Positions 7,439 to 57,508 of a stretch of 64,000 nt of DNA are shown in pieces. The notes beneath the pieces are model-generated. The model worked only from the letters and a program-made list of their open reading frames with translations. It was not told where the DNA came from and searched no databases. A program made the translations under genes and the position numbers. The stretch is from Candidatus Curtissbacteria bacterium (GTDB lineage Bacteria; Patescibacteriota; Microgenomatia; Curtissbacterales; GWA2-41-24): the NCBI GenBank assembly GCA_030647775.1, contig JAUSJC010000010.1, positions 72,718 through 136,717 on the forward strand. The letters run 5' to 3'. Within the stretch, counting starts at the first letter, position 1. Each line of letters opens with the position of its first letter.

Positions 7439-7512
7439 AACTGACACTTGTGTCATCCCGAACTTGTTTCGGGATCTATTTTGATTCAGGATCTTTCCGA
7501 CAATTATATATT
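7439..7512. repeat. Palindromic MITE-like element, GTCATCCYGAAC...GTTCRGGATGAC family (hairpin GATCCCGAAACAAGTTCGGGATGAC)
   Basis: Nearly identical copies at 21639-21748 and 63624-63716; related copies at 17803-17858, 19381-19415, 8281-8372, 49161-49258, 52521-52608, 31332-31394, 25245-25309. Confidence 0.85.
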
Positions 7513-7600
7513 CTTCGAGTGAGTTCTGCATTGCAGAACGAATCGAGAAGTTTAGAAGTTTGAATAGTTCTCGACTTCGCTCGAACAATAAATCAATAGT
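7513..7600. repeat. MITE-like element with terminal inverted repeats CTTCGAGYGAG ... GCTCGAACAATA and internal palindrome GTTCTGCATTGCAGAAC
   Basis: Family copies at 8183-8240, 12926-12960, 18556-18660, 19246-19330, 26205-26240, 30888-30977, 35660-35754, 52497-52644, 63950-63990. Confidence 0.8.
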
Positions 7601-8182: not shown

Positions 8183-8280
8183 TTAGTTCTCGACTCATTC
8201 CGTCGAGCCAGACTCGACCCCATTCGCTCGAATAATAATCATATACCCGTTTTTTTGACGATCGCAAATTTTTTGGGTAT

Positions 8281-12427: not shown

Positions 12428-12820
12428 CTATTTCTTCCCCAAATAGCTCCAAAAAGCAAAAAGCCCAACGGCTAAAATCACCCCAAATAAATTAAACAGA
12501 TTTAAAACCTGCGAGGCGGTGAGTTGGGCAACCGAAGCCACAAAAAGTGCCACGAAAAACGCCATTTTAAACGAAGTTTTAAAGTACCAACTCGGGTCAT
12601 AGCGCTTATAAAACTTTGTCCTTACAAAATAAAGCAAGCACCCAAGACCGCAAAATACAAAAGTAAATAAAAGTGCGTCAAAACCCGCGAAAATATACCA
12701 AGGCGCTTTTTGCGGGTCAAAAACCGTCACGATCCAGGCAATCCCAAAAAGCGAAGCGAATGCGGCGAGAAATGTAAAAGGCAAAAGTTGATGCATAAAT
12801 ATATTGTAACCCAGCTCCGT
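12428..12820 (-). CDS. Small hypothetical membrane protein
   Basis: 4 TM helices; ORF-track N-terminus (MPAGRSLA) is read-through of a palindromic repeat; likely start MTELGYN. Confidence 0.35.
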   Translation of the reverse strand, partial: TELGYNIFMHQLLPFTFLAAFASLFGIAWIVTVFDPQKAPWYIFAGFDALLFTFVFCGLGCLLYFVRTKFYKRYDPSWYFKTSFKMAFFVALFVASVAQLTASQVLNLFNLFGVILAVGLFAFWSYLGKK

Positions 12821-12925
12821 CATTGCGAGCGACCTGCCTGCCGGCAAGGCAGGAGCGAAGCAATCTCAAACAAGAAAGATTGCTTCGTCGCCCTGAGCGA
12901 AGTCGAAGGGCTCCTCGCAATGACA
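12821..12925. repeat. Composite palindromic element GTCATTGCGAG-[CCTGCCTGCCGGCAAGGCAGG]-GAGCGAAGCAATCTC...GATTGCTTCG-[CCCTGAGCGAAGTCGAAGGG]-CTCCTCGCAATGAC
   Basis: Outer inverted repeat GTCATTGCGAG/CTCGCAATGAC; related copies 17745-17800, 48601-48690, 19721-19803. Confidence 0.8.
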
Positions 12926-30689: not shown

Positions 30690-32585
30690 ATGAACATCCG
30701 AAACTTTGCTCTAATTGCCCATATTGACCATGGCAAATCAACTCTTGCCGATCGTATTATGGAAGCCTGCGGCGCAGTTGGTACTTCTCACCAAGCCCAG
30801 CTTTTGGATAGTCTGGAGCTGGAGCGCGAGCACGGCATTACCATCAAACTCAAGGCGATCCGATTAGTTTACAAACCGGAAAATATTCTTCGAGCGAGCG
30901 AAGCGAGTCGAGAAGTTTCCACTGAAAATATTAATAGTTCTAAAGGTAAGTTCTCGATAAACTCGAACAATAATGACGCATTCATCTTGAACTTACTTGA
31001 TACTCCCGGCCATGTCGATTTTTCTTACGAGGTTTCCCGTTCGCTGGCCTCTGTCGAAGGCGCGATCCTAATTGTTGATGCTACTCAAGGCGTCCAGGCC
31101 CAAACGCTTTCCAATTTCACCCTCGCCCTCGATGCTAACCTCACCCTAATTCCCGTCATCAATAAGATTGATTCACCCCAAGCCGAGGTTGAAAAAACCC
31201 AGGAAGAGCTGAAAAACCTTGGTTTTTCACAAGCGGAAATAATCAAAGTTTCTGCCAAAACAGGCGAAGGAGTGGATCATCTTCTCGAACAAATCGTCAG
31301 CCGCATCCCACCGCCCACAAACTTCTCCGCACGTCATTCTGAACTCGTTTCAGAATCTAAAGACAAGATCCCGAATCAAGTTCGGGATGACAAGTTGAGA
31401 GCCCTCATTTTCGATTCCAGTCTAGATCCCTACAAAGGCGTCATCGCGACAGTCCGCTTATTTGGCGGAGGCCTAAAAGTAGGGGACCAGATAAAATTTT
31501 TGGCAACCGGCGCGCAAGCAGAGGTATTGCAAATCGGCTACCTAACTCCGGTCGTCAAATATGTCAATGAAATTAAATCGGGTGAAGTCGGCTTTATCGT
31601 TACCAATCTTAAGGACTTATTCAAAGTCGAAGTCGGGGATACCATCACCAGTCCCAAGGATCCGGCCAAACCGCTTCTCGGTTATAAGCATGCCAAACCG
31701 GTTGTTTTCCTTTCCTTTTATCCAACCGATGTCGGCGATTTTCCAAAATTAAAAGAAGGCCTGGAAAAATTAAAGCTAAACGATGCGGCGCTTTCCTTTT
31801 CCCCGGAAACTTCCATCTCCCTGGGCCAGGGCCTTCGCGTCGGCTTCCTCGGCTTACTCCACGCTCAAATTACCCAGGAGCGTTTGGAGCGCGAACATAA
31901 TCTGGATATTATTGCCGTTTCGCCTTCTGTCAATTTCGAAGTTGACGGCAAGCTTATCAATAAACCGTCGGAATTTGATCCGGCCGCCCAAAACGTCAAA
32001 GAGCCTTATGCCAAAGTAACCATTTTTGCCCCTCAAAAATATTTCGGCACCGTCTCCAATCTTGTTCACGACAAAAGAGGGACTCTCGGCAACTCCGAAA
32101 ACATCGGAAATCTTTTGAAAATCGAATGCGAAATTCCGCTCTTAGAACTTCTAATTGGTTTTTACGACCAATTAAAGACGCAAACTTCCGGTTACGGATC
32201 GCTCGATTTTGAACTGTCGGAGTATAAACCGGCAAAACTGGCCAAACTCGATATTCTGGTCAATCACGAACCGATAGAAGCCCTAACCCAGATTGTTCCG
32301 TACCAAAGGGCTGAAGAAATTGGCCGCAAATTTGTGGAAAAACTAAAAGATGCCATCCCGCGCCAGCAAATCCCAGTTCCAATCCAGGCGGCCATCGGCG
32401 GCAAAATTATCGCCCGCGAAACAATCGCCTCCTTTAGAAAAGACGTTACTGCTAAACTCTACGGCGGCGATGTCACGCGCAAGATGAAGCTTTTGCAAAA
32501 GCAAAAGAAGGGGAAGAAACGAATGAGAAGATTTGGAAGTGTCGATATTCCACAAGAAGCTTTCCTGGCTGTCCTTAAAGTATAA
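30690..32585 (+). CDS. lepA: Elongation factor 4 (LepA) carrying two in-frame repeat-element insertions
   Basis: IAHIDHGKSTL, DTPGHVDF, NKID, C-terminal LepA-specific domain; 631 aa vs ~600 typical. Confidence 0.9.
   Translation: MNIRNFALIAHIDHGKSTLADRIMEACGAVGTSHQAQLLDSLELEREHGITIKLKAIRLVYKPENILRASEASREVSTENINSSKGKFSINSNNNDAFILNLLDTPGHVDFSYEVSRSLASVEGAILIVDATQGVQAQTLSNFTLALDANLTLIPVINKIDSPQAEVEKTQEELKNLGFSQAEIIKVSAKTGEGVDHLLEQIVSRIPPPTNFSARHSELVSESKDKIPNQVRDDKLRALIFDSSLDPYKGVIATVRLFGGGLKVGDQIKFLATGAQAEVLQIGYLTPVVKYVNEIKSGEVGFIVTNLKDLFKVEVGDTITSPKDPAKPLLGYKHAKPVVFLSFYPTDVGDFPKLKEGLEKLKLNDAALSFSPETSISLGQGLRVGFLGLLHAQITQERLEREHNLDIIAVSPSVNFEVDGKLINKPSEFDPAAQNVKEPYAKVTIFAPQKYFGTVSNLVHDKRGTLGNSENIGNLLKIECEIPLLELLIGFYDQLKTQTSGYGSLDFELSEYKPAKLAKLDILVNHEPIEALTQIVPYQRAEEIGRKFVEKLKDAIPRQQIPVPIQAAIGGKIIARETIASFRKDVTAKLYGGDVTRKMKLLQKQKKGKKRMRRFGSVDIPQEAFLAVLKV
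30888..30977. repeat. MITE-like element (TTCGAGCGAG...GTTCTCGATAAACTCGAACAATAATGAC) inserted in frame in lepA G domain
   Basis: Encodes ~ILRASEASREVSTENINSSKGKFSINSNNN between conserved KAIRLVYKP and LNLLDTPGH. Confidence 0.8.
31332..31394. repeat. Palindromic element CGTCATTCTGAACTCGTTTCAGAATC...CCGAATCAAGTTCGGGATGAC inserted in frame in lepA
   Basis: Encodes SARHSELVSESKDKIPNQVRDD in loop after PPP motif. Confidence 0.8.
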
Positions 32586-33861: not shown

Positions 33862-34228
33862 TAATAAGTGTCCGTCCCATTGGGGCGGTTTTCTTGTTTC
33901 TGGCCTAAGATCCAGAACCAATATGACATCCGAAATAGATCCTCTAGTTCATCGCCACCTAAGACAATCTGCCAATTACACTGTAGTGGAAGATGGACGA
34001 AAGCCTAGTGCTTCCGAAAGATCCCAGGCAATCTCTAACGCCCGCGATTACAGAAAACCAGTTTTCAGATTAAGATATGTGGAAGAGCAGAGACGGATCG
34101 ATCTCGTACCACCGGATATGACGATCAAAAGCGGTTCTACCGTTGTAGAACAAAAGCCATCCAGCTACCGACCTTTTTCTCTTATCCCTCCGACAAAGTA
34201 GGAGTCCTTCAAACTCCAAAAATTCGCT
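33862..34228 (+). ncRNA. Candidate structured non-coding RNA of unknown class (~360 nt)
   Basis: Strong promoter, no SD, the only ORF (33923-34201) has random-like R-rich composition; multiple local hairpins; weak RNase P-like strings (GGACGAAAGCC, TAACGCC, ACAGAAAAC) not sufficient for assignment. Confidence 0.25.
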
Positions 34229-34229
34229 C

Positions 34230-34266
34230 TTGACAACTTTTAGCACTCGGTGTATATTACTGCTAA
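34230..34266 (+). promoter_or_regulatory. hrcA promoter (TTGACA-17-TATATT) overlapped by CIRCE-like inverted repeat TTAGCACTC-N9-TACTGCTAA
   Basis: CIRCE consensus TTAGCACTC-N9-GAGTGCTAA; 15/18 match; directly upstream of hrcA. Confidence 0.55.
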
Positions 34267-34283
34267 CCTTGATCTTAGTTCAT

Positions 34284-34328
34284 ATTCGGATTAATTCGGA
34301 CTAAGAATTCGGATCAATTAGGGAAATT
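34284..34328. repeat. Three phased direct repeats AATTCGGA(T/C)TAA in hrcA 5'UTR ending in AATTAGGG
   Basis: ATTCGGATTAATTCGGACTAAGAATTCGGATCAATTAGGG. Confidence 0.7.
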
Positions 34329-35048
34329 ATGGACCTCACCGAACGCCAGAAAAAATTACTCCGCTCAATAATTGAAAAGTATATCGAGACGGCCGAACCA
34401 ATCGGTTCCGAGACTGTCGAGAAAGAGGCCGGGCTTGGAGTTTCGCCCGCAACCATCCGAAACGAAATGGTCAGGCTAACCGCTTTAGGCTACGTTCGCC
34501 AGCCTTACACCTCGGCCGGCCGCATTCCAACTTCCATGGGCATGAAGTTTTTTGTCGACCAGCTAATGGAAGAAAAAGCCCTTTCGCTGAAAGATGAAGT
34601 TGCTATCAAAGAAGAAATGAACCAGGGTGACCAGCGTTTTGAAAGGCATTTAAAGCACGCCGCCCAGGTTTTGGCGCAGCAGACAAAATCACTGGCCATT
34701 GCCAGTGATGAAGAGGGTGACATTTATGCTTCAGGTATGGCCAATATTTTGGATATGCCCGAATTTTATGATATCGATATCACCAAAACCGTCCTTTCCA
34801 TGCTCGATAAAGTCGAACTTCTAAACCAGGTTTTTGCCATGCTTCTTCCCCAGGACCAAATAAAAATCTTTTTCGGTGAAGAGCTTGGGGTTCCCTTTTT
34901 GGAACCATGCGGCTTTGTAATTGTCCGCTACGAAGCGCCAAGCCATAGAGGGGTCCTTGGGGTCATCGGCCCGTCGCGCCTAAACTATCCGGTGGTTATT
35001 CCGACCATGAAATACTTTGCCCATCTGCTCGGCGAATTTTCCAAATAA
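34329..35048 (+). CDS. hrcA: Heat-inducible transcription repressor HrcA (short form)
   Basis: MDLTERQKKLLRSIIEKYIETAEPIGSETV... winged-helix N-terminus typical of HrcA. Confidence 0.8.
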   Translation: MDLTERQKKLLRSIIEKYIETAEPIGSETVEKEAGLGVSPATIRNEMVRLTALGYVRQPYTSAGRIPTSMGMKFFVDQLMEEKALSLKDEVAIKEEMNQGDQRFERHLKHAAQVLAQQTKSLAIASDEEGDIYASGMANILDMPEFYDIDITKTVLSMLDKVELLNQVFAMLLPQDQIKIFFGEELGVPFLEPCGFVIVRYEAPSHRGVLGVIGPSRLNYPVVIPTMKYFAHLLGEFSK

Positions 35049-35051
35049 TCT

Positions 35052-35672
35052 ATGAAAAACGATATGCCCAAAACCAAATCTAACAAAACGGCCGAAGGCC
35101 CTGAGCAAAGTCGAAGGGACCAAAAACACGTCGAAGACCTTGAGCGCAGTCGAAGGGCCGAAGACCCTGAGCAAAGTCGAAGGGCCGCAGGTCATGAGAA
35201 TGATCGAATGGAGCTCGAAAACCGGCTCAAGCGTGCCCTTGCCGATTACCAGAATCTGGAGCGCCGTGTAGAAGAAGAGCGCAGGCTTTTGGGTCAACTT
35301 TCGTCAGCTCTTTTGATCGAGAAATTTTTGCCGGTTTTGGATAATCTGGAAAACGCCCAAAAACATTTGAACGACGAGGGCCTGGAAATTGTCATCCGTC
35401 AATTTAAAGATATTCTGTCTTCCGAAGGTGTTGAAGAAATCGAGTCCGTTGGTGCTGCTTTTGACCCTCATCAGCACGAAGCAGCCGAAGTCCAGGAAGG
35501 CGAAAACGACAATACAGTTGTCAAAGTCTTGCGTAAAGGTTATAAAATGAATGATAAGGTTCTTCGACCTGCCCAAGTTGTTGTCGAGAAAAAATCCGCC
35601 GGCGACAGCCAATCAGACAGTCTTGGTCAGGGAGTAAAAGAAGAGGAGGTTAATTATTCTTCGAGCGAGTGA
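35052..35672 (+). CDS. grpE: Nucleotide exchange factor GrpE with repeat-derived N-terminal extension
   Basis: LKRALADYQNLERRVEEERR core; N-terminus contains three tandem ~21-nt units (35099-35186) encoding PEQSRRD/LERSRRA/PEQSRRA. Confidence 0.85.
   Translation: MKNDMPKTKSNKTAEGPEQSRRDQKHVEDLERSRRAEDPEQSRRAAGHENDRMELENRLKRALADYQNLERRVEEERRLLGQLSSALLIEKFLPVLDNLENAQKHLNDEGLEIVIRQFKDILSSEGVEEIESVGAAFDPHQHEAAEVQEGENDNTVVKVLRKGYKMNDKVLRPAQVVVEKKSAGDSQSDSLGQGVKEEEVNYSSSE
35099..35186. repeat. Three tandem copies of CCYTGAGCRMAGTCGAAGGGMC inside grpE coding sequence
   Basis: Same unit at 12891-12911, 57298-57318, 48497-48518, 45839-45862, inverted at 35693-35712. Confidence 0.8.
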
Positions 35673-35754
35673 AACGAGTCGAGAAGTTTTAGTTCTCGAC
35701 AAGTCTTCGACCGTGAGGCTCAGACCGAATCGGCTCGAACAATAAAAAACTAAT
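35660..35754. repeat. MITE-like element (CTTCGAGCGAGTGAAACGAGTCGAGAAG...GGCTCGAACAATA) spanning grpE stop and dnaK start region
   Basis: Family TIRs; encodes grpE C-terminal NYSSSE. Confidence 0.75.
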
Positions 35755-37695
35755 ATGCCAAAAATTATTGGAATCGATCTAGGTACTACAAATAGCGCAG
35801 TTTCGGTTGTGGAAGCCGGCAAGCCAAAGGTTATCCACAGCGCCGAAGGCCGCAACATTATTCCGTCTGTTGTCGACCCGCAAAAACATATCGTCGGTGA
35901 CGTTGCCAAACGCCAGATGGTCGTTAACCCCAAAACCACGATCTTTTCCATCAAGCGTTTAATGGGCCGTAAGTTTAAAGATGCCGAAGTCCAGCGCGAT
36001 CTCAAATGGCTCCCCTACGAAGTTAAAGAAGGCAAAATCGGCATGGCGGTAGTTTCTGTCGACGGCCACGATTACACTCCGCAGGAAATCTCGGCCATGA
36101 TTATTGGCAAAATTAAAGCCGATGCCGAAGCCTATCTCGGCGGCAAGGTAGACCAGGCGGTCATTACCGTTCCGGCCTATTTTGACGATTCCCAACGGCA
36201 GGCTACCAAACAAGCCGGCGAAATTGCCGGTCTTAAAGTCGAGCGCATTATAAACGAACCGACAGCCGCGGCTCTTGCCTACGGTCTGGATAAATCCCAT
36301 GCCCACACCATTGCCGTTTACGACCTTGGCGGCGGCACTTTTGATATTTCCGTACTCGAGCTTGGCGAAGGCGTTTTTGAAGTCAAGGCCACCAACGGCG
36401 ATACCCATTTGGGCGGTGACGATTTTGACCAATTAATTGTCCAGTTCCTCATCGGCCAGTTCAAAGAAGAATCCGGCATGGATGTATCGCGCGACCGTCC
36501 GGCTCTCCAGCGTTTGCGCGACGCCGCCGAAAAAGCCAAGATCGAGCTTTCGACAACGCAGGAAACGGAAATCTCGATTCCCTATTTAACCGCCGACAAC
36601 ACCGGCCCGAAGCACCTGCAGCTTAAGCTTTCCCGCGCCAAGCTTGAACAAATCGTTGGCGAACTTGTCGAAAAGACTCTCGGCCCTGTTGCGGCCTGCT
36701 TAAAAGACGCCAAAATCGATCCTTCCAAAATTGACGAAGTTGTTTTGGTTGGCGGTATGACCAGAATGCCCCTGGTTACCGAAAAAGTAAAAAGCTTCTT
36801 TGGCAAAGAACCCAATAAAACCATCAACCCGGACGAAGTTGTCGCCATCGGTGCGGCCGTCCAGGGCGCGGTTTTAGGCGGCGAAATGAAAGAAATGGTA
36901 CTTCTCGATGTTACACCGCTAACTCTCGGAATCGAGACTTTAGGCGGTGTCTCAACGGCACTAATTTCCCGAAATACCACCGTCCCAACATCAAAGACCG
37001 AAGTTTTCTCAACGGCTTCGGATAACCAGACGTCTGTCGAAATTAACGTCCTTCAGGGTGAACGCCCGATGGCCAGCGATAACAAATCTTTAGGAAGATT
37101 TATTTTAGATGGTATTCCGCCCTCCCCCCGCGGCGTTCCGCAGGTAGAAGTTACTTTTGATCTTGACGCTTCCGGCATCCTGCACGTTAAAGCCAAGGAT
37201 AAGGCTACCGGCAAAGAGCAATCCATAAAAATCACCGGCTCAACCGGTCTTTCCGAAGAAGAAATTCAAAGGATGACCAAAGAGGCGGAGGAGCACGCCA
37301 AAGAAGACGAAACCAAAAAAGAAGAAATCGAAATTAGAAACCACGCCGACACTTTGGTCTATCAGGCCGAAAAGGCCTTAAAAGACGGCGGTGACAAAGT
37401 CCCGGCGGAAGTTAAGACCGAAGTTGAGGAAAAGATAAAAGCCCTGAAAGAAATCCAGTCTTCCGCCCCGATAGAAGAAGTCAAAGCCAAAACCGAAGAA
37501 CTTTCAACCTCACTTTCAAAAATCGGCTCGTCCATGTATAGCCAAGGTCAACCCGGAGGTGCTGACGCAGGAAGTACCGAAGGCACTGACGCAGGAAGTG
37601 CAGCCAATGGCGAGACTCCGCCCGAAAACGGACAACCAGGAGCAGACGACAAAGCAGCCGGCGACGTCCAAGAAGGAGAAGTTGTTAAGGAATAA
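35755..37695 (+). CDS. dnaK: Molecular chaperone DnaK (Hsp70)
   Basis: [18 protein letters not shown], canonical Hsp70 throughout; 646 aa. Confidence 0.95.
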
Positions 37696-37922
37696 ATTTC
37701 AATTATCAAGCACCAAATATCAAACAATTTCCAATCTCAAAATCCCAAAGTCTTCGTCTAAGTTTATAATTTAGAAATTGAAATTTTGAATTTGTTTGTG
37801 ATTTGGAATTTGGAGTTTGGAATTTAACCAAAGATGGCTACAAAACGCGACTTAGCCCCGCAGGGATTTAAATTTAGTTATAATTCACAAACGAAATTTA
37901 AAGCGCGAGGAGCGCAGACTTT

Positions 37923-44781: not shown

Positions 44782-46137
44782 ATGGCAATACAACAAAGAA
44801 GTGAATTTGCGTCAGCTCTAAACCAGGTTTGTTCCGAGCGCGGAATCGAACCGGCAGTGGTTATCGACTCCATAAAACAGGCAATTCTGGCGGCCTACCG
44901 CAAAGATTACGGCGAACCCGAAGGTATTGAGGTCGAGATCAACGAGGTTAGCGGCGAGGTTACCCTCAAAAAGGATAAAGAAATTGTCACTCCTCCGGGC
45001 TTTGGCCGCATTGCCGCCCAAACCGCCAAACAGGTAATCTTACAAAGGATCAGGGAAGCGGAAAAAGAAGCCATCATGGGTGAATATTCTTCCAAAGTCG
45101 GCACCGTAGTTTCCGGAGTAATCCAGCGCATTTCCGGCCCGATTGTCACTATCAGTCTTGGTAAAGCCGAAAGTATTATGCCCCCGCCGGAACAGGCTCG
45201 CGGCGAAAAATATTATGTCAACCAACGCCTGAAATTTTATATTGTCGGTATCAAAGAAGGTATGCATGGCGAAGAAATCATCGTTTCCCGTTCGGCAAAC
45301 GGTCTTCTGGAAGGTTTATTCAAACAGGAAGTACCGGAAATGGCTTCTGGCGCAGTCGAGGTTAAGGCTATGGCCCGTGAAGCCGGATCGCGTTCTAAAA
45401 TTGCCGTTGCTTCCGGGCAGCTTGGTGTCGACCCGGTCGGTTCTTGTGTCGGCCAAAAAGGCGTCCGCGTGCAGGCAGTAATCAACGAACTCGGCGACGA
45501 AAAAATCGACGTTATTGCTTATCAGGAAGACTTGGCGCAGTTTATACAAGCCGCGCTTTCTCCGGCTAAAGACCTGCAGGTTAAAATCGACGAAAAAACA
45601 AAAGTCGCCGAAGTGACGGCGCCCGACGACCAGCTTTCTTTGGCTATCGGTAAAGAAGGCCAAAACGTGCGCTTGGCGGCCAAACTGACCGGTTACAAAA
45701 TTGACATTCGCGGCAAAAGTGGTACACCTAGAGAAGTAGAAGCCAAAGGGAAAGCCGCGCAGGAAGAAGCCAGAAAAGCCTTTGGAGTTACAGAAGAGTC
45801 GAGGGAGCCAAAGGTCGAAAACACTGAGCAAGCTACAGCCCTGAGCTCGTCGAAGGTCGAAGACCATGAGCGTAGTCGAATGGGTCGAAGTGCAGACGAT
45901 CAGGCTAAGATAGCGCAAGTCCCGTCAGGCGATGGTCAACCAAAAACTGACGAGGTTCCGGTAGGAGACACAGAGCCATTAATTTCGAGTAAACGAGAAA
46001 TAAGCTCTCTTATCGCCGATGCCGAAGAGAAAAAAGAAGAGGAAGAGGCAGAAAAAGTAGCAGAAGAAATCAAAGTTAAGCCGGAAAAAGCAGAAGAAAA
46101 TGAATCAAAACCAGATTCATCAGACGATCAACCGTAA
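44782..46137 (+). CDS. nusA: Transcription termination/antitermination factor NusA with repeat-derived acidic C-terminal extension
   Basis: N-terminal domain, S1 and two KH domains (GQLGVDPVGSCVGQKGVRVQAV, LAIGKEGQNVRLAAKLTGYKIDI); C-terminus contains repeat units at 45839-45862 and 46006-46028. Confidence 0.9.
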   Translation: MAIQQRSEFASALNQVCSERGIEPAVVIDSIKQAILAAYRKDYGEPEGIEVEINEVSGEVTLKKDKEIVTPPGFGRIAAQTAKQVILQRIREAEKEAIMGEYSSKVGTVVSGVIQRISGPIVTISLGKAESIMPPPEQARGEKYYVNQRLKFYIVGIKEGMHGEEIIVSRSANGLLEGLFKQEVPEMASGAVEVKAMAREAGSRSKIAVASGQLGVDPVGSCVGQKGVRVQAVINELGDEKIDVIAYQEDLAQFIQAALSPAKDLQVKIDEKTKVAEVTAPDDQLSLAIGKEGQNVRLAAKLTGYKIDIRGKSGTPREVEAKGKAAQEEARKAFGVTEESREPKVENTEQATALSSSKVEDHERSRMGRSADDQAKIAQVPSGDGQPKTDEVPVGDTEPLISSKREISSLIADAEEKKEEEEAEKVAEEIKVKPEKAEENESKPDSSDDQP

Positions 46138-47622: not shown

Positions 47623-48597
47623 ATGGATCAAAACTCTAAACAAAAAACCCTCGATAATTTAACAAAGGCCGAAATCATCCTAGTTGCCGTATCGGAAAAT
47701 GCCGGTTTTGACGGCATGGCAGCGGGCCTTGCCCTTTATCTTTCTTGTCTTAAGCTTGGCAAAAACACGGCTGTTCAAGCCAAAAACCCGTCTGTTGATG
47801 ATGCCCAAAGGCTTTACGGTGTAGATAAGATTGGCCGCATAGAAGGAAGCAAAAATCTCGTCATTGTTGTTAACGATGCAGTCGAAAACGTTGACAAGGT
47901 TACTTATTCACTTGAGGGTACAAAACTCAAAATAGTTGTCCATCCTTTCCCAGGCGCCAAAAATGTCAACCGCCACCAAATTTCTTTTGAGGAGACTTCT
48001 ACAAAACCCAATTTAGTTTTTGCAGTAGGTTTCCAAACACAAGAAGAATTGAATCAAGTTATTGCTCATGAGCAAAATTTAGACCCAACCATCTGGATTA
48101 TCAATATTAACAAGCAGGACGTAGGCCAATTGTCCGCTCAAGTTAGCGCCAATAATTCCCAAGCCGCTTCGATTTGTGAAGTTACGGCCCAAATTTTCCA
48201 ACAGCTTGCCCTGCCGCTGGACGAAGACATTGCTTACAACCTTTATGCCGGTGTTGCCCAAGCCACGAATTATTTTTCCCCAAGCCTGGCAAGCCCTTTA
48301 AGCTTTGAAACGGCTTCGTGGCTTTTGAAATTCGGCGCCGGCCGGGCAAGTTTTGCCAAGGGGCAAAGTTCCCAGTTATCTATGCCAAAACCGCAAATGC
48401 CTCCGCTGGAAGAATCGGATATTGCCGCAGGCGGACAGTTCCAAAATCCTAACCCCTTTGACCAGCCGCCGATTGAGCAAGTTGAAAGGTCAAAGACCCT
48501 GAGCCCAGTCGAAGGGCCGAAGGCTACTACGCAGGAAAATTGGCTAAAGCCGCCCAAAGTTTATAGAGGTTCCAAATCCTTTGACAGCGAGAAGTAA
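47623..48597 (+). CDS. DHH-family (NrnA-like) protein with degenerate catalytic motifs (tentative)
   Basis: EIILVAVSENAGFDGMAAGLAL at position of HxxPDGDAxGS; C-terminus contains repeat-derived KTLSPVEGPKA. Confidence 0.35.
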   Translation: MDQNSKQKTLDNLTKAEIILVAVSENAGFDGMAAGLALYLSCLKLGKNTAVQAKNPSVDDAQRLYGVDKIGRIEGSKNLVIVVNDAVENVDKVTYSLEGTKLKIVVHPFPGAKNVNRHQISFEETSTKPNLVFAVGFQTQEELNQVIAHEQNLDPTIWIININKQDVGQLSAQVSANNSQAASICEVTAQIFQQLALPLDEDIAYNLYAGVAQATNYFSPSLASPLSFETASWLLKFGAGRASFAKGQSSQLSMPKPQMPPLEESDIAAGGQFQNPNPFDQPPIEQVERSKTLSPVEGPKATTQENWLKPPKVYRGSKSFDSEK

Positions 48598-52496: not shown

Positions 52497-52644
52497 AGTA
52501 TCCTTCGAGCGAAACAAGAAGTAATGTCATCCTGAACTAGATTCAGGATCTAGATTCCGAAAGATACAGGGCCATGCGACCTAAAGGTCTAAAGTTCGGA
52601 ATGACAATGAATGTAAGTTCTCGTTAACACTCGAACAATATAAA
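52497..52644. repeat. Nested repeat: CTTCGAGCGAAACAAGAAG + GTCATCCTGAACTAGATTCAGGATC...GTTCGGAATGAC + GTTCTCGTTAACACTCGAACAATA
   Basis: TIR family element containing palindromic family element. Confidence 0.8.
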
Positions 52645-57095: not shown

Positions 57096-57508
57096 ACGAC
57101 CACAACCACAATCCAAATCACAACAGCAACAATATTTCTTCACTTGTAGCAGGTGTAGTTTTAGGTGCCGCCCTAACTTATCTCTTTGGTACAAAAAGCG
57201 GCCAGAAATTAAAGGACGAACTTGTAAAAGAAGGCCAAAAGCTCCTTGAAGAAATGGGCAAGGAACTTGAAGAAACCAAGGATAAAATCGCCGAAGGTCC
57301 TGAGCGAAGTCGAAGGGAAGAAAGTGAAGTCGGCAAAAAATTAGAATCGGTCAAAGAAAAAGCCGAAGGCACTAAGTTGGTTCAAAATGCCATTGAAGCA
57401 AAAGAACAGTTGCAAGAGGTTATCGAAGACGTTCCAAAGCACATCGAAGAAATCCAGAAAAAAGGCCGCCGCTTTTTCTTCAAGCGCTCTGCCGCCCACG
57501 AGTCGTAA
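57092..57508 (+). CDS. YtxH-like small membrane protein with repeat-derived insert
   Basis: SLVAGVVLGAALTYLFGTKSGQKLKDEL YtxH-type N-terminus; contains GPERSRRE unit (57298-57318). Confidence 0.45.
   Translation: MNDHNHNPNHNSNNISSLVAGVVLGAALTYLFGTKSGQKLKDELVKEGQKLLEEMGKELEETKDKIAEGPERSRREESEVGKKLESVKEKAEGTKLVQNAIEAKEQLQEVIEDVPKHIEEIQKKGRRFFFKRSAAHES

What the first reader, a model, noticed from the sequence alone, without database searches (positions are those of the whole stretch)
35099..35186. GrpE N-terminus is built from three tandem copies of a 21-nt unit that also decorates other proteins
CCYTGAGCRMAGTCGAAGGGMC repeats three times in frame, producing PEQSRRD-LERSRRA-PEQSRRA ahead of the conserved GrpE core.

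The same unit occurs in frame in a YtxH-like protein (57298-57318, GPERSRRE), in the DHH-like protein (48497-48518), in the NusA C-terminal tail (45839-45862) and next to the 12.8 kb palindromic element. It also occurs in the opposite orientation in the grpE-dnaK spacer (35693-35712).

A mobile 21-nt module is adding charged peptides to chaperone and transcription-factor termini.
Basis: seen in the sequence. Interest (0 to 1): 0.6.

Follow-up and report, generated by a model that had tools for sequence, protein, structure and literature searches.

The report
Mobile 27-base repeat inside genes
A 27-base DNA repeat, whose core turns up in many bacterial phyla, sits in frame up to four times at the start of the GrpE chaperone gene and in other genes of this small Curtissbacteria genome, adding nine-residue peptides much as the 'selfish DNA inside genes' of Rickettsia does, but on a far smaller scale.

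Summary
The repeats are real and far above chance: 7 hits against 0.01 expected.

- **Unit size.** The unit is 27 nt (nine codons), GYCGAAGRYCCTGAGCRAAGTCGAAGG, not 21 nt.
- **Layout in grpE.** There is one unit at one site. Twelve nt further on lie two good units and one decayed unit.
- **Copy number.** Orthologous Curtissbacteria grpE loci keep the same ATG and N-terminal peptide and carry 0 or 1 unit; the window carries 4. Every length difference is a whole number of codons, so the repeats are coding and polymorphic.
- **Other genes.** The YtxH and DHH-like genes each carry exactly one 27-nt unit that their orthologues lack. No site shows a target duplication.
- **Wider distribution.** The 25-mer occurs in at least 120 metagenome contigs. 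In low-GC, CPR-like contigs it often lies in frame, in either orientation, inside housekeeping enzymes (RNR, CarA, MiaA, MnmA, FolC, TatD, DNA ligase). The 18-nt core occurs in more than 15 phyla, mostly between genes.
- **Databases.** No Rfam family and no paper I could find covers it.

Best reading: a tiny non-autonomous dispersed repeat, tolerated in flexible protein segments and amplified locally. The insertion mechanism is unknown. It is a new variant of the RPE / intragenic-REP phenomenon.

The parts
35052..35672 (+). grpE coding sequence (206 aa) that hosts the repeats. The N-terminal tail before the conserved helix is 53 aa, the longest among 120 homologues.
   Evidence: ORF list. Pfam GrpE covers residues 36-180. 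100% identical to a Candidatus Curtissbacteria MAG protein. Tail lengths.
35091..35117 (+). 27-nt unit A (GCCGAAGGCCCTGAGCAAAGTCGAAGG), inserted between AACAAAAC and GGAYCAAAAACAC. It encodes AEGPEQSRR.
   Evidence: Absent from all six orthologous loci L001-L006.
35130..35156 (+). 27-nt unit B1 (GTCGAAGACCTTGAGCGCAGTCGAAGG). It encodes VEDLERSRR.
   Evidence: A single unit occupies the same position (after CAC) in L002 and L003. L004-L006 have none.
35157..35183 (+). 27-nt unit B2 (GCCGAAGACCCTGAGCAAAGTCGAAGG). It encodes AEDPEQSRR and differs from unit A by 1 nt.
   Evidence: It shares the minority 'CAAAGT' variant with unit A (variant frequencies).
35184..35210 (+). Decayed 27-nt unit B3 (GCCGCAGGTCATGAGAATGATCGAATG). 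It encodes AAGHENDRM and supplies the internal ATG at 35208.
   Evidence: 72% identical to the reference copy. L001 has a homologous decayed unit.
57290..57316 (+). 27-nt unit in the YtxH-domain gene (GCCGAAGGTCCTGAGCGAAGTCGAAGG), read as AEGPERSRR.
   Evidence: A 9-residue gap at this position in P0122-P0125 and P0127-P0129. The DNA of L247 lacks exactly these 27 nt. L248 has the unit plus a second one upstream.
48489..48515 (+). 27-nt unit in the DHH-like gene 47623-48597 (GTCAAAGACCCTGAGCCCAGTCGAAGG), read in the other open frame as SKTLSPVEG.
   Evidence: Absent from P0197-P0205. The DNA of L249 and L250 lacks exactly these 27 nt.
45814..45905 (+). Decayed array of three or four units in the NusA C-terminal tail. 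One unit is a shorter variant (CCCTGAGCTCGTCGAAG), which shifts the frame in which later units are read.
   Evidence: Sequence context and translation. Pfam NusA domains end near residue 331 of 451. No comparison with orthologues was made.
12892..12910 (+). Core-only copy (no CGAAG prefix) lying in the right arm of a composite palindrome (12819-12924), upstream of rmuC.
   Evidence: At the mirror position the left arm carries a different small hairpin module, CCTGCCTGCCGGCAAGGCAGG.
35655..35744 (.). A different palindromic MITE-like element fills the grpE-dnaK spacer. Its half-sites (TTCGAGCGA..GTCGAGAA) are related to the unit's core. It is not a copy of the unit.
   Evidence: Absent from all orthologous junctions. 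Terminal repeats TATTCTTCGAGCG / GGCTCGAACAATA belong to a family with 16 hits against 2.7 expected. Copies are compared.

Best explanation
The grpE repeats are copies of a discrete 27-nt (nine-codon) dispersed DNA repeat, GYCGAAGRYCCTGAGCRAAGTCGAAGG. It behaves as a very small non-autonomous element.

**Shown**
- Whole units are present or absent at orthologous sites, with no target-site duplication.
- Units occur at several unrelated loci in this genome.
- The same 25-mer is found in many other genomes, between genes and inside genes, in both orientations.

**Inferred**
- In the gene-dense Curtissbacteria/CPR genomes, insertions persist only where a multiple-of-three insert lands in an open frame and in a flexible segment (tails, linkers, surface loops). 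The peptides (PE[RQ]SRR, LSPVEG, or LRLRSGSS when antisense) are therefore tolerated passengers rather than selected functions.
- Once one unit is present, neighbouring copies arise by slipped-strand or unequal recombination, or by short-range re-insertion. This gives the 0-4 copies seen in grpE.
- The unit probably acts as single-stranded DNA (or RNA) with two small hairpins built on C-GAA-G turns: Y-CGAAG-R, and CCY-GAGCGAAGTCGA-RGG.
- De novo insertion probably uses a trans-acting or host function that recognises these hairpins, following REP/IS200-type logic. This last step is the least certain.
For: **Translation**
- The same start (ATGAAAAACGATATGCC, 3 nt or more after the hrcA stop) and the same N-terminal peptide occur in orthologues with 0, 1 or 4 units.
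- All length differences are multiples of three. Single insertions are exactly 27 nt. The window has 81 nt where the orthologues have one CAG/GAG codon.

**Discrete module, no duplication**
- Exactly 27 nt are gained at grpE site A, grpE site B (L002, L003), YtxH site 1, YtxH site 2 (L248) and the DHH-like site. Boundary ambiguity is at most 1-2 nt.

**Not chance**
- 7 hits against 0.01 expected in the window.
- The 25-mer occurs in at least 120 metagenome contigs with GC from 29 to 70%.
- The 18-mer occurs in at least 120 genome loci from more than 15 phyla, including cultured isolates. The G:A variant ratio is 122:11 where chance would give about 1:1.

**DNA-level spread rather than peptide selection**
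- Copies are under-represented in long ORFs: 47% against 78% of random positions in loci below 45% GC.
- Copies occur in both orientations and several frames.

**Real host proteins**
- Pfam confirms RNR, ProRS, TatD, MiaA, MnmA, FolC, CarA, DNA ligase and HtpX with the unit inside or next to domains.
- RNR contigs show 1-3 tandem units at one hot spot.

**Tolerated location in GrpE**
- AlphaFold gives pLDDT 51-74 for residues 11-40, most of the repeat segment, against more than 90 for most of the core.

**Hairpins**
- The base before CGAAG against the base after it: C-G 58, T-A 55, other 11.
- At CCY..RGG, variant copies are C-G 12 against 5 non-pairs.
- The co-resident MITE half-site keeps the 12-mer GAGCGAAGTCGA but swaps CCT/AGG for the equally complementary TTC/GAA.

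**Local copying**
- Units A and B2 differ by 1 nt and share the minority 'A' variant, which makes up about 10% of copies.
Against: - No insertion machinery was identified. No gene family recurs near the 240 loci, and only 64 kb of this genome was visible.
- Nearest-neighbour folding, as DNA or RNA, gives no significant structure for the unit, the grpE array or the spacer: z = +1.0, +0.9, -0.3, -0.3 and -1.6.
- The covariation could reflect two founder haplotypes rather than selection for pairing.
- Frame use inside ORFs is strongly skewed: 23 of 45 copies are PExSRR and 12 of 45 are LRLRSG. Some peptide-level filtering, or even benefit, is therefore not excluded.
- Presence/absence among orthologues cannot by itself tell gains from precise losses.
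- Translation of the extension is inferred, not measured.
Confidence: 0.7

Rival explanations
1. The repeats are not coding. GrpE starts at the internal ATG (35208, M53), and the units form an hrcA-grpE intergenic or 5'-UTR element, possibly regulatory.
For: An in-frame ATG lies at 35208 just before the conserved helix. Neither candidate start has a clear Shine-Dalgarno sequence. GrpE N-tails are dispensable and poorly modelled.
Against: - Orthologues without units use the same upstream ATG. Their conserved core begins only about 18 codons after it, so that start is real.
- The ATG at 35208 is itself part of a decayed unit (CGAAGG changed to CGAATG).
- All length differences keep the frame.
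- No promoter-like site with more than 9 of 12 matches lies between hrcA and the grpE core. The 11-of-12 site overlaps CIRCE upstream of hrcA.
- The same unit is demonstrably read through inside enzyme domains elsewhere.
Confidence: 0.07
2. It is purely a local coding minisatellite. Slipped-strand mispairing at grpE created and varies the array, and the similar sequences elsewhere are unrelated or convergent.
For: The period is 27 with 2-3 adjacent copies. Copy number is 0-4 among relatives. Tandem arrays of 2-3 units also occur in RNR genes.
Against: - Slippage cannot create the first copy.
- Single units with identical sequence occur at unrelated loci, with clean 27-nt filled/empty boundaries.
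- The exact 25-mer occurs in at least 120 unrelated metagenome contigs.
- Unit A is separated from the array by unique sequence.
- A 27-nt unit cannot act as a frameshifting on/off switch.
Confidence: 0.08
3. The peptide is the selected entity. PE(R/Q)SRR is a short linear motif, for example a docking, localisation or protease site, recruited repeatedly into CPR proteins.
For: The PExSRR frame is used in 23 of 45 long-ORF cases against about 9 expected if the five open frames were used equally. The peptides are hydrophilic and charged.
Against: - The same DNA is mostly intergenic outside CPR.
- It is also read as LSPVEG, LRLRSGSS and PSTSLR.
- It occurs in phyla with GC from 29 to 70% with the nucleotide sequence, not just the peptide, conserved.
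- Close orthologues function without it.
Confidence: 0.07
4. It is an RNA-level regulatory structure of the heat-shock operon, such as a thermosensor or a processing or stability element between hrcA and the grpE core.
For: It lies within a CIRCE/HrcA-controlled operon. The unit shows base-pair covariation.
Against: The array has no significant predicted RNA structure, z = -0.28. There is no Rfam match. Identical units sit in many unrelated genes in both orientations. Orthologous operons lack it.
Confidence: 0.04

Closest known systems
Rickettsia palindromic elements (RPEs; Ogata et al. 2000 and 2002, as summarised in PMC10969869)
   Same: A dispersed repeat family inserted in frame into many unrelated housekeeping genes of a small genome. 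It adds a peptide segment that appears compatible with protein function, and it is also found between genes.
   Different: RPEs are about 100-150 bp palindromes restricted to Rickettsia. This unit is 27 nt and is not a classical palindrome. It is read in several frames and both orientations, and its core is shared by more than 15 phyla. The 70-140-nt palindromic family that co-resides in this window (lepA, grpE-dnaK spacer) is the closer structural analogue of an RPE.
REP / REPIN elements, including intragenic REPs (GTAG- and CGTC-tagged super-families, PMC3733652; REPIN-RAYT, PMC3116915)
   Same: Size is 20-40 nt with short stem-loops. Copies are mostly extragenic and sometimes form inverted dimers (seen here in Hyphomonas and Sphingomonas loci). 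Occasional in-frame intragenic copies occur, and CGTC REPs also lack a known dedicated transposase.
   Different: The unit has no GTAG tag. A CGTC precedes only the 12892 copy. The stem and loop geometry described for CGTC REPs (8-9 bp stems starting with A-T pairs, 4-5 nt loops, CCA tails) does not fit. No RAYT-like neighbour was found. REP families are usually species- or genus-specific, whereas this core is near-identical across phyla.
Bacterial MITEs that carry ORFs or fuse in frame (ERIC, BOX, Coxiella QMITE; PMC10969869, PMC5896051)
   Same: Non-autonomous small elements that can create in-frame fusions and new peptide segments.
   Different: MITEs are 70-300 bp with terminal inverted repeats and target-site duplications. 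The 27-nt unit has neither.
Coding minisatellites and PARCEL-type intragenic repeat modules (PMC2996958)
   Same: Short in-frame repeat units with variable copy number. PARCELs are palindromic coding repeats distributed across distant microbes.
   Different: Those repeats encode a selected amphipathic protein module in surface proteins. Here the unit is mostly non-coding outside CPR and is scattered as single copies in cytoplasmic housekeeping enzymes.
Mini-hairpin DNA, d(GCGAAGC)/CCGAAGG (PMC13037366)
   Same: The unit holds three C-GAA-G motifs. One lies within GCCGAAGGC, which contains the CCGAAGG mini-hairpin reported in the ssiA priming signal. The flanking pair co-varies between C-G and T-A.
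   Different: The mini-hairpin is a physical-chemistry motif, not a repeat family. Its formation here is untested, and standard folding parameters do not predict it.

Membership tests
RPE-type in-frame selfish DNA | A repeat family inserted in frame in several unrelated, apparently functional genes | tested here: met
   grpE, YtxH and DHH-like in the window, with orthologues lacking the unit. RNR, CarA, MiaA, MnmA, FolC, TatD, DNA ligase and others in metagenome contigs, confirmed by Pfam.
RPE-type in-frame selfish DNA | About 100-150 bp palindromic element able to form a long stable hairpin | tested here: not met
   The unit is 27 nt. DNA and RNA folds are not better than shuffles.
RPE-type in-frame selfish DNA | Sequence homology to the Rickettsia RPE families | not tested
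The host is a CPR bacterium, not Rickettsia.
REP / REPIN (RAYT-mobilised) | Short (20-40 nt) imperfect palindrome, predominantly extragenic | tested here: inconclusive
   The size fits, and copies are depleted from long ORFs. Only two 3-bp stems are supported, by covariation, not by folding energy.
REP / REPIN (RAYT-mobilised) | Unpaired GTAG or CGTC tag at one end, with the stem and loop geometry of PMC3733652 | tested here: not met
   There is no GTAG. CGTC precedes only the 12892 copy. Common prefixes are CGAAGRY, AGCCTGC, GTCAT and CGTTCGC.
REP / REPIN (RAYT-mobilised) | A RAYT (Y1/HUH transposase) gene in the genome, typically flanked by REPs | not testable with these tools
   Only 64 kb of a contig of at least 527 kb was visible. 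No recurrent neighbouring family was found in 240 loci of 1-15 kb. A trans-acting gene elsewhere cannot be excluded.
MITE | Terminal inverted repeats plus a target-site duplication, 70-300 bp | tested here: not met
   Five filled/empty junctions show a 27-nt gain with at most 1-2 nt of boundary ambiguity and no inverted termini.
Slipped-strand contingency locus | Head-to-tail repeats whose copy-number changes shift the reading frame or promoter spacing | tested here: not met
   Copy number varies from 0 to 4, but the unit is 27 nt, so the frame is always kept. Unit A is not contiguous with the array.
Mini-hairpin DNA motif | C-GNA-G turn closed by complementary bases | tested here: met
   GCCGAAGGC and GTCGAAGAC are present. 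The flanking pair is C-G in 58 copies, T-A in 55 and other in 11. The motif definition is taken from PMC13037366.
Mini-hairpin DNA motif | Unusual thermal and nuclease stability of the folded strand | not testable with these tools
   This needs melting or nuclease assays. Nearest-neighbour models give -0.8 to -1.4 kcal/mol for the 27-mers, no better than shuffles.
Rfam RNA families | A match to any curated covariance model | tested here: not met
   No hit overlaps a unit in the window or in eight representative loci.

The most novel reading that the evidence does not exclude
The 27-nt unit would be the smallest known mobile DNA. It would be a module capped by C-GAA-G mini-hairpins that spreads within and between bacterial phyla, and is also present in viral contigs, without an element-encoded enzyme. 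Spread could occur by capture of nuclease-resistant single-stranded fragments at replication forks or breaks, or through a universal host function. In DNA-scavenging, gene-dense CPR bacteria it would routinely remodel housekeeping proteins in nine-residue steps.
Probability: 0.2. Interest if true: 0.85.

Novelty: new variant of a known kind. Interest (0 to 1): 0.6.

Why it matters
- **A new lower bound.** In-frame colonisation of essential genes by repeats is best known from Rickettsia. Here the same thing happens with a unit of only nine codons, in Candidate Phyla Radiation bacteria, and in enzymes such as ribonucleotide reductase, CarA, MiaA and DNA ligase.
- **Annotation and phylogenetics.** These inserts inflate and misalign CPR proteins. 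They also seed spurious ORFs and 'conserved' peptides across phyla.
- **Protein evolution.** The inserts give a ready source of length variation in linkers and tails.
- **An open question.** A near-identical 18-25-mer occurs in genomes from 29 to 70% GC and in more than 15 phyla. That needs either frequent horizontal spread or a strong sequence constraint that is still unidentified. Clean filled/empty sites such as those found here make the question testable.

Tried and rejected
- **Rfam.** Gathering threshold on the whole window, E-value mode on 34000-36000 and on eight repeat-bearing loci. No family overlaps a unit.
- **Literature word searches.** Searches for the encoded peptides (FDFAQG, PSTSLRAG, PFDKLR, LSLSKG, VILSEAK, PELVEG) and for sequence words returned nothing relevant or only primers. 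Concept searches for CPR repeats found no description of this unit.
- **Folding.** RNA and DNA nearest-neighbour folding of the array, the unit and the spacer gave no significant z-scores.
- **CGTC-tagged REP membership** (PMC3733652). Rejected on tag and stem geometry.
- **Linked transposase.** I ran an all-against-all comparison of 3,736 ORFs from 240 loci. The largest clusters are generic families: PAS sensors, SDR, ABC-F, RNR, aldo-keto reductases and kinases.
- **Strand rule.** All window copies are on the + strand, but antisense in-frame copies are common elsewhere. The window pattern comes from only five loci.
- **Conserved target sequence.** None is evident at the five empty sites. Only the DHH-like site resembles a unit-unit junction.
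- **Reverse copy at 35693-35712.** Rejected as a copy of the unit.
Full report
**Setting.** The window comes from a Candidatus Curtissbacteria (Microgenomates, CPR) metagenome-assembled genome. The 206-aa ORF at 35052-35672 is 100% identical to a GrpE protein of such a MAG, on a 526,960-bp contig. The locus is a classical heat-shock operon:
- hrcA at 34329-35048, grpE at 35052-35672, dnaK at 35755-37695 and dnaJ from 37923;
- a CIRCE operator at 34240-34266, with 2 mismatches;
- a TTGACA-17-TATATT promoter-like site at 34230-34258 that overlaps CIRCE.

**Checking the observation.** CCTGAGCRAAGTCGAAGGG occurs seven times in the window with up to 3 mismatches, against 0.01 expected, and always on the + strand.
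- The three grpE copies are at the stated coordinates and in frame.
- They are not tandem 21-mers. Start-to-start spacing is 39, 27 and 27 nt, and there is a fourth, decayed copy. Tandem Repeats Finder reports period 27.
- Read in register, the unit is 27 nt: G-Y-CGAAG-R-Y-CCTGAGC-R-AAGTCGAAGG.
- grpE holds unit A (35091-35117), then 12 nt of unique sequence, then B1 (35130-35156), B2 (35157-35183) and the decayed B3 (35184-35210).
- The YtxH copy carries the same 9-nt prefix (57290-57316), and so does the DHH-like copy (48489-48515).
- The DHH-like copy is read in the unit's other open frame (LSPVEG).
- The NusA tail holds a decayed array with one 26-nt step, so its units are read in two frames.
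- The unit's third sense frame contains TGA.
- The copy claimed in reverse orientation in the grpE-dnaK spacer is not a copy. The unit aligns no better to the minus strand than to the plus strand of the spacer.

**Are the repeats coding?** I retrieved the DNA of six orthologous hrcA-grpE junctions and aligned them.
- All six share ATGAAAAACGATATGCC a few bases after the hrcA stop, and the peptide M(K/N/D)DMPKTK.
- L004, L005 and L006 have no unit. Their conserved GrpE helix begins about 18 codons after that ATG, so the ATG must be the start.
- L002 has exactly one perfect unit (GTCGAAGACCCTGAGCGAAGTCGAAGG) between CAC and GAG.
- L003 has a diverged unit at the same place.
- L001 has a decayed unit one codon further on.
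- In the window, site B has 81 nt (three units) where the orthologues have a single CAG/GAG codon. Site A has a further 27 nt that no orthologue has.
- Every difference is a multiple of three.
- The window's 53-residue N-tail is the longest among 120 homologues, where 14-27 residues is typical.
- The internal ATG at 35208 is part of decayed unit B3.

Direct evidence of translation is still missing. AlphaFold2 with 28 homologues gives pLDDT of about 51-74 for residues 11-40, most of the repeat segment, and more than 90 for most of the core. Residues 20-35 are drawn as a low-confidence helix that precedes the long N-terminal helix.

**Is it a discrete, inserted module?** Two further window sites were tested against orthologues and at the DNA level.
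- YtxH gene: seven close orthologues have a 9-residue gap exactly where the window reads PERSRREES. L247 lacks precisely GCCGAAGGTCCTGAGCGAAGTCGAAGG. L248 has that unit and a second 27-nt unit at a new site 15 nt upstream of it (starts 42 nt apart).
- DHH-like gene: nine orthologues lack SKTLSPVEG, and L249 and L250 lack precisely GTCAAAGACCCTGAGCCCAGTCGAAGG.
- In all five filled/empty comparisons the gain is 27 nt and boundary ambiguity is at most 1-2 nt. There is no target-site duplication and there are no inverted termini.
- No common target sequence is evident. Only the DHH-like empty site (GAAAG|ACCGAAGGCC) resembles a unit-unit junction.
- Units A and B2 differ by one base and share the minority CAAAGT variant, carried by about 10% of copies overall. 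This hints that A was copied from the adjacent array.

**Distribution beyond this genome.**
By my own arithmetic the chance expectation for a 25-mer with three two-fold positions is far below one.
These cover Acidobacteriota, Bacteroidota, Alpha-, Beta- and Gammaproteobacteria, Cyanobacteria, Planctomycetota, Chloroflexota, Verrucomicrobiota, Spirochaetota, Nitrospirota, Myxococcota, Desulfobacterota, Patescibacteria and others. They include cultured isolates such as Flavobacterium, Pedobacter, Sphingomonas and Hyphomonas.
- With uniform base composition about 35 chance hits would be expected in 596 Gb. The scan stopped early, and the G:A ratio at the degenerate position is 122:11, so most hits are not chance.
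- In these larger genomes the core has other prefixes (AGCCTGC, GTCAT, CGTTCGC). It often sits in the loop of variable hairpins or as inverted pairs.
- The core is also present in 110 IMG/VR viral contigs.
- No Rfam family matches it. Full-text searches found no description of it.

**Coding versus non-coding copies.** Across all fetched loci, copies are depleted from long ORFs compared with random positions: 47% against 78% below 45% GC, and 33% against 83% at 45-55% GC. In contigs below 50% GC, many of which look CPR-like, many copies still lie inside long ORFs.
- After removing duplicates there are 45 such cases. Of these, 23 are read as PE(R/Q)SRR, 12 as antisense LRLRSG(SS/PS), and 10 in the other three open frames.
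- Pfam confirms that ten of these ORFs are genuine housekeeping proteins: class II ribonucleotide reductase (unit inside the barrel domain), prolyl-tRNA synthetase, a PurL-like protein, TatD, MiaA, MnmA, FolC, the CarA glutamine amidotransferase domain, an ATP-dependent DNA ligase of another Curtissbacteria genome, and HtpX.
- RNR genes from different contigs carry 1-3 tandem units at one hot spot and another unit at a second site.
- A GrpE from another contig carries the unit at its C-terminus (L166).

Use of both orientations and several frames, together with the mostly intergenic location elsewhere, argues that the DNA spreads rather than a selected peptide. The frame skew shows that selection filters which insertions survive.

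**Anatomy and possible mechanism.** The unit contains three C-GAA-G motifs.
- In 124 non-redundant copies, the base before the first CGAAG and the base after it are C-G in 58, T-A in 55 and something else in 11.
- In the second half (CCY-GAGCGAAGTCGA-RGG), copies that were not selected by the search pattern are C-G 12 times against 5 non-pairs.
- A second repeat family in the window keeps the same 12-mer GAGCGAAGTCGA but flanks it with TTC/GAA instead of CCT/AGG, which is again complementary.

These patterns support two small hairpins, although two founder haplotypes could mimic the first one. GCCGAAGGC contains CCGAAGG, a documented 'mini-hairpin' DNA motif whose stability conventional thermodynamic models do not capture (PMC13037366). 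Consistent with that, nearest-neighbour folding gives nothing significant, so the physical claim remains untested.

The lack of a target duplication, the small hairpins and the use of both strands resemble REP/IS200-type single-strand logic more than DDE transposition. However, no candidate enzyme recurs near the 240 loci, and only 64 kb of this genome could be inspected. I therefore treat the following as shown:
- the module is discrete;
- it is polymorphic between orthologues;
- it is dispersed within and beyond this genome;
- it keeps the reading frame wherever it lies in a gene.

Translation of the grpE copies is inferred from start-codon conservation and frame preservation, not measured. 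Its passenger status and local amplification by slippage or unequal exchange are inferred. The hairpin-dependent insertion step is a hypothesis.

**Comparison with known systems.**
- Functionally the closest precedent is the Rickettsia palindromic element, inserted in frame into many unrelated genes (PMC10969869). Intragenic REPs are a second precedent (PMC3733652).
- Membership of those families fails on defining features. The unit is 27 nt and not a long palindrome. It has no GTAG tag and does not match the CGTC tag geometry. It has no terminal inverted repeats or target duplication as a MITE would.
- It is not a contingency locus, because the unit never shifts the frame.
- I classify it as a new variant of a known kind. 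It is noteworthy for its size, for its spread across phyla, and for how often it sits inside CPR housekeeping enzymes.

**Limits.**
- ORF-based 'coding' calls are crude outside the ten Pfam-verified cases.
- Orthologous contigs are mostly short.
- Gains cannot yet be told from precise losses.
- No expression or protein data exist.

Noticed in passing
window 35655-35744 (grpE-dnaK spacer): A palindromic insert of about 90 nt is absent from all six orthologous junctions. It supplies the last residues and the stop codon of GrpE (YSSSE*, a tail also seen in homologues P0009, P0010 and P0024). It separates the ancestral dnaK Shine-Dalgarno sequence (GAGGAGG, 35643-35649) from the dnaK ATG (35755) by about 105 nt. 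The predicted hairpin would bring the two back together, but its z-score is only -1.6.
   Followed up: partly
window 7509-7590, 30884-30972, 35655-35744, 52499-52640; solo ends at 8225, 12945, 18635, 19311, 26222: A second dispersed family of 70-140-nt MITE-like palindromes has ends TATTSTTCGAGCG / CGCTCGAACAATA (16 hits against 2.7 expected). Its half-site TTCGAGCGAAGTCGAGAA shares the 12-mer GAGCGAAGTCGA with the 27-nt unit.
   Followed up: partly
window 30884-30972, inside lepA (30690-32585): One of these palindromic elements lies in frame inside the LepA GTPase domain. It adds about 30 residues (…ILRASEASREVSTENINSSKGKFSINSNNN…) just before the DTPGH motif. LepA orthologues in L004-L006 lack it.
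   Followed up: partly
window 12819-12924: A composite palindrome reads GTCATTGCGAGCGA…AGCGAAGCAATCTC / GATTGCTTCGTCGC…CTCCTCGCAATGAC. Its two arms are each interrupted at the mirror position by a different small module: CCTGCCTGCCGGCAAGGCAGG on the left and the CCTGAGCGAAGTCGAAGGG core on the right. This suggests nesting of short hairpin modules.
   Followed up: no
L028 (Candidatus Curtissbacteria RIFCSPLOWO2_02_FULL_40_11), ATP-dependent DNA ligase ORF: This ligase carries the unit in antisense (TLRLRSGQA). It also carries in-frame copies of two other widespread short modules, read as VIARNSKNDEAI…ERARGDK and LPAGRQ. Several repeat families therefore decorate CPR proteins.
   Followed up: no
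L132, L157, L235, L242 (class II ribonucleotide reductase genes in metagenome contigs): There are two hot spots for the 27-nt unit. One, directly after the GS(I/V)NLSKFV motif, carries one decayed unit in L157 and two or three units (the first diverged) in L132 and L242 (VEDTEQSRRVEDPEQSRRVEDPEQSRRA in L242). The other lies about 130 residues upstream.
   Followed up: partly
L136/L208, L213, L230 (metagenome contigs): Units lie immediately or a few bases downstream of tRNA-like 3' ends (GGTTCGAATCC…). In many other contigs the unit is embedded in arrays of 7-nt tandem repeats (CAGTGAT, GGAATGG, GTAGATA, AGCAGTA).
   Followed up: no
IMG/VR viral contigs L251-L330 and beyond: The 18-nt core occurs in 110 viral or proviral contigs, with a G:A variant ratio of 104:8. 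Phages could therefore carry it between hosts, or the hits could be host flanks of prophages.
   Followed up: no
window 37768-37825 (dnaK-dnaJ spacer): A tandem array of the heptamer AATTTGG has 8.7 copies at 68% match.
   Followed up: no
GrpE homologues P0056, P0100, P0055/P0073, P0005/P0008: Other Curtissbacteria GrpE tails carry different short repeats or modules: SSVPS repeats, VILGSEATPES, GEPRSDDEREEKA and SPRPF..AGQA. The GrpE termini appear to be general hot spots for such insertions.
   Followed up: no
L006 9133-9207 (intergenic, upstream of hrcA): An inverted pair of decayed units (3 mismatches each) lies just upstream of hrcA in a relative whose grpE has no unit.
   Followed up: no
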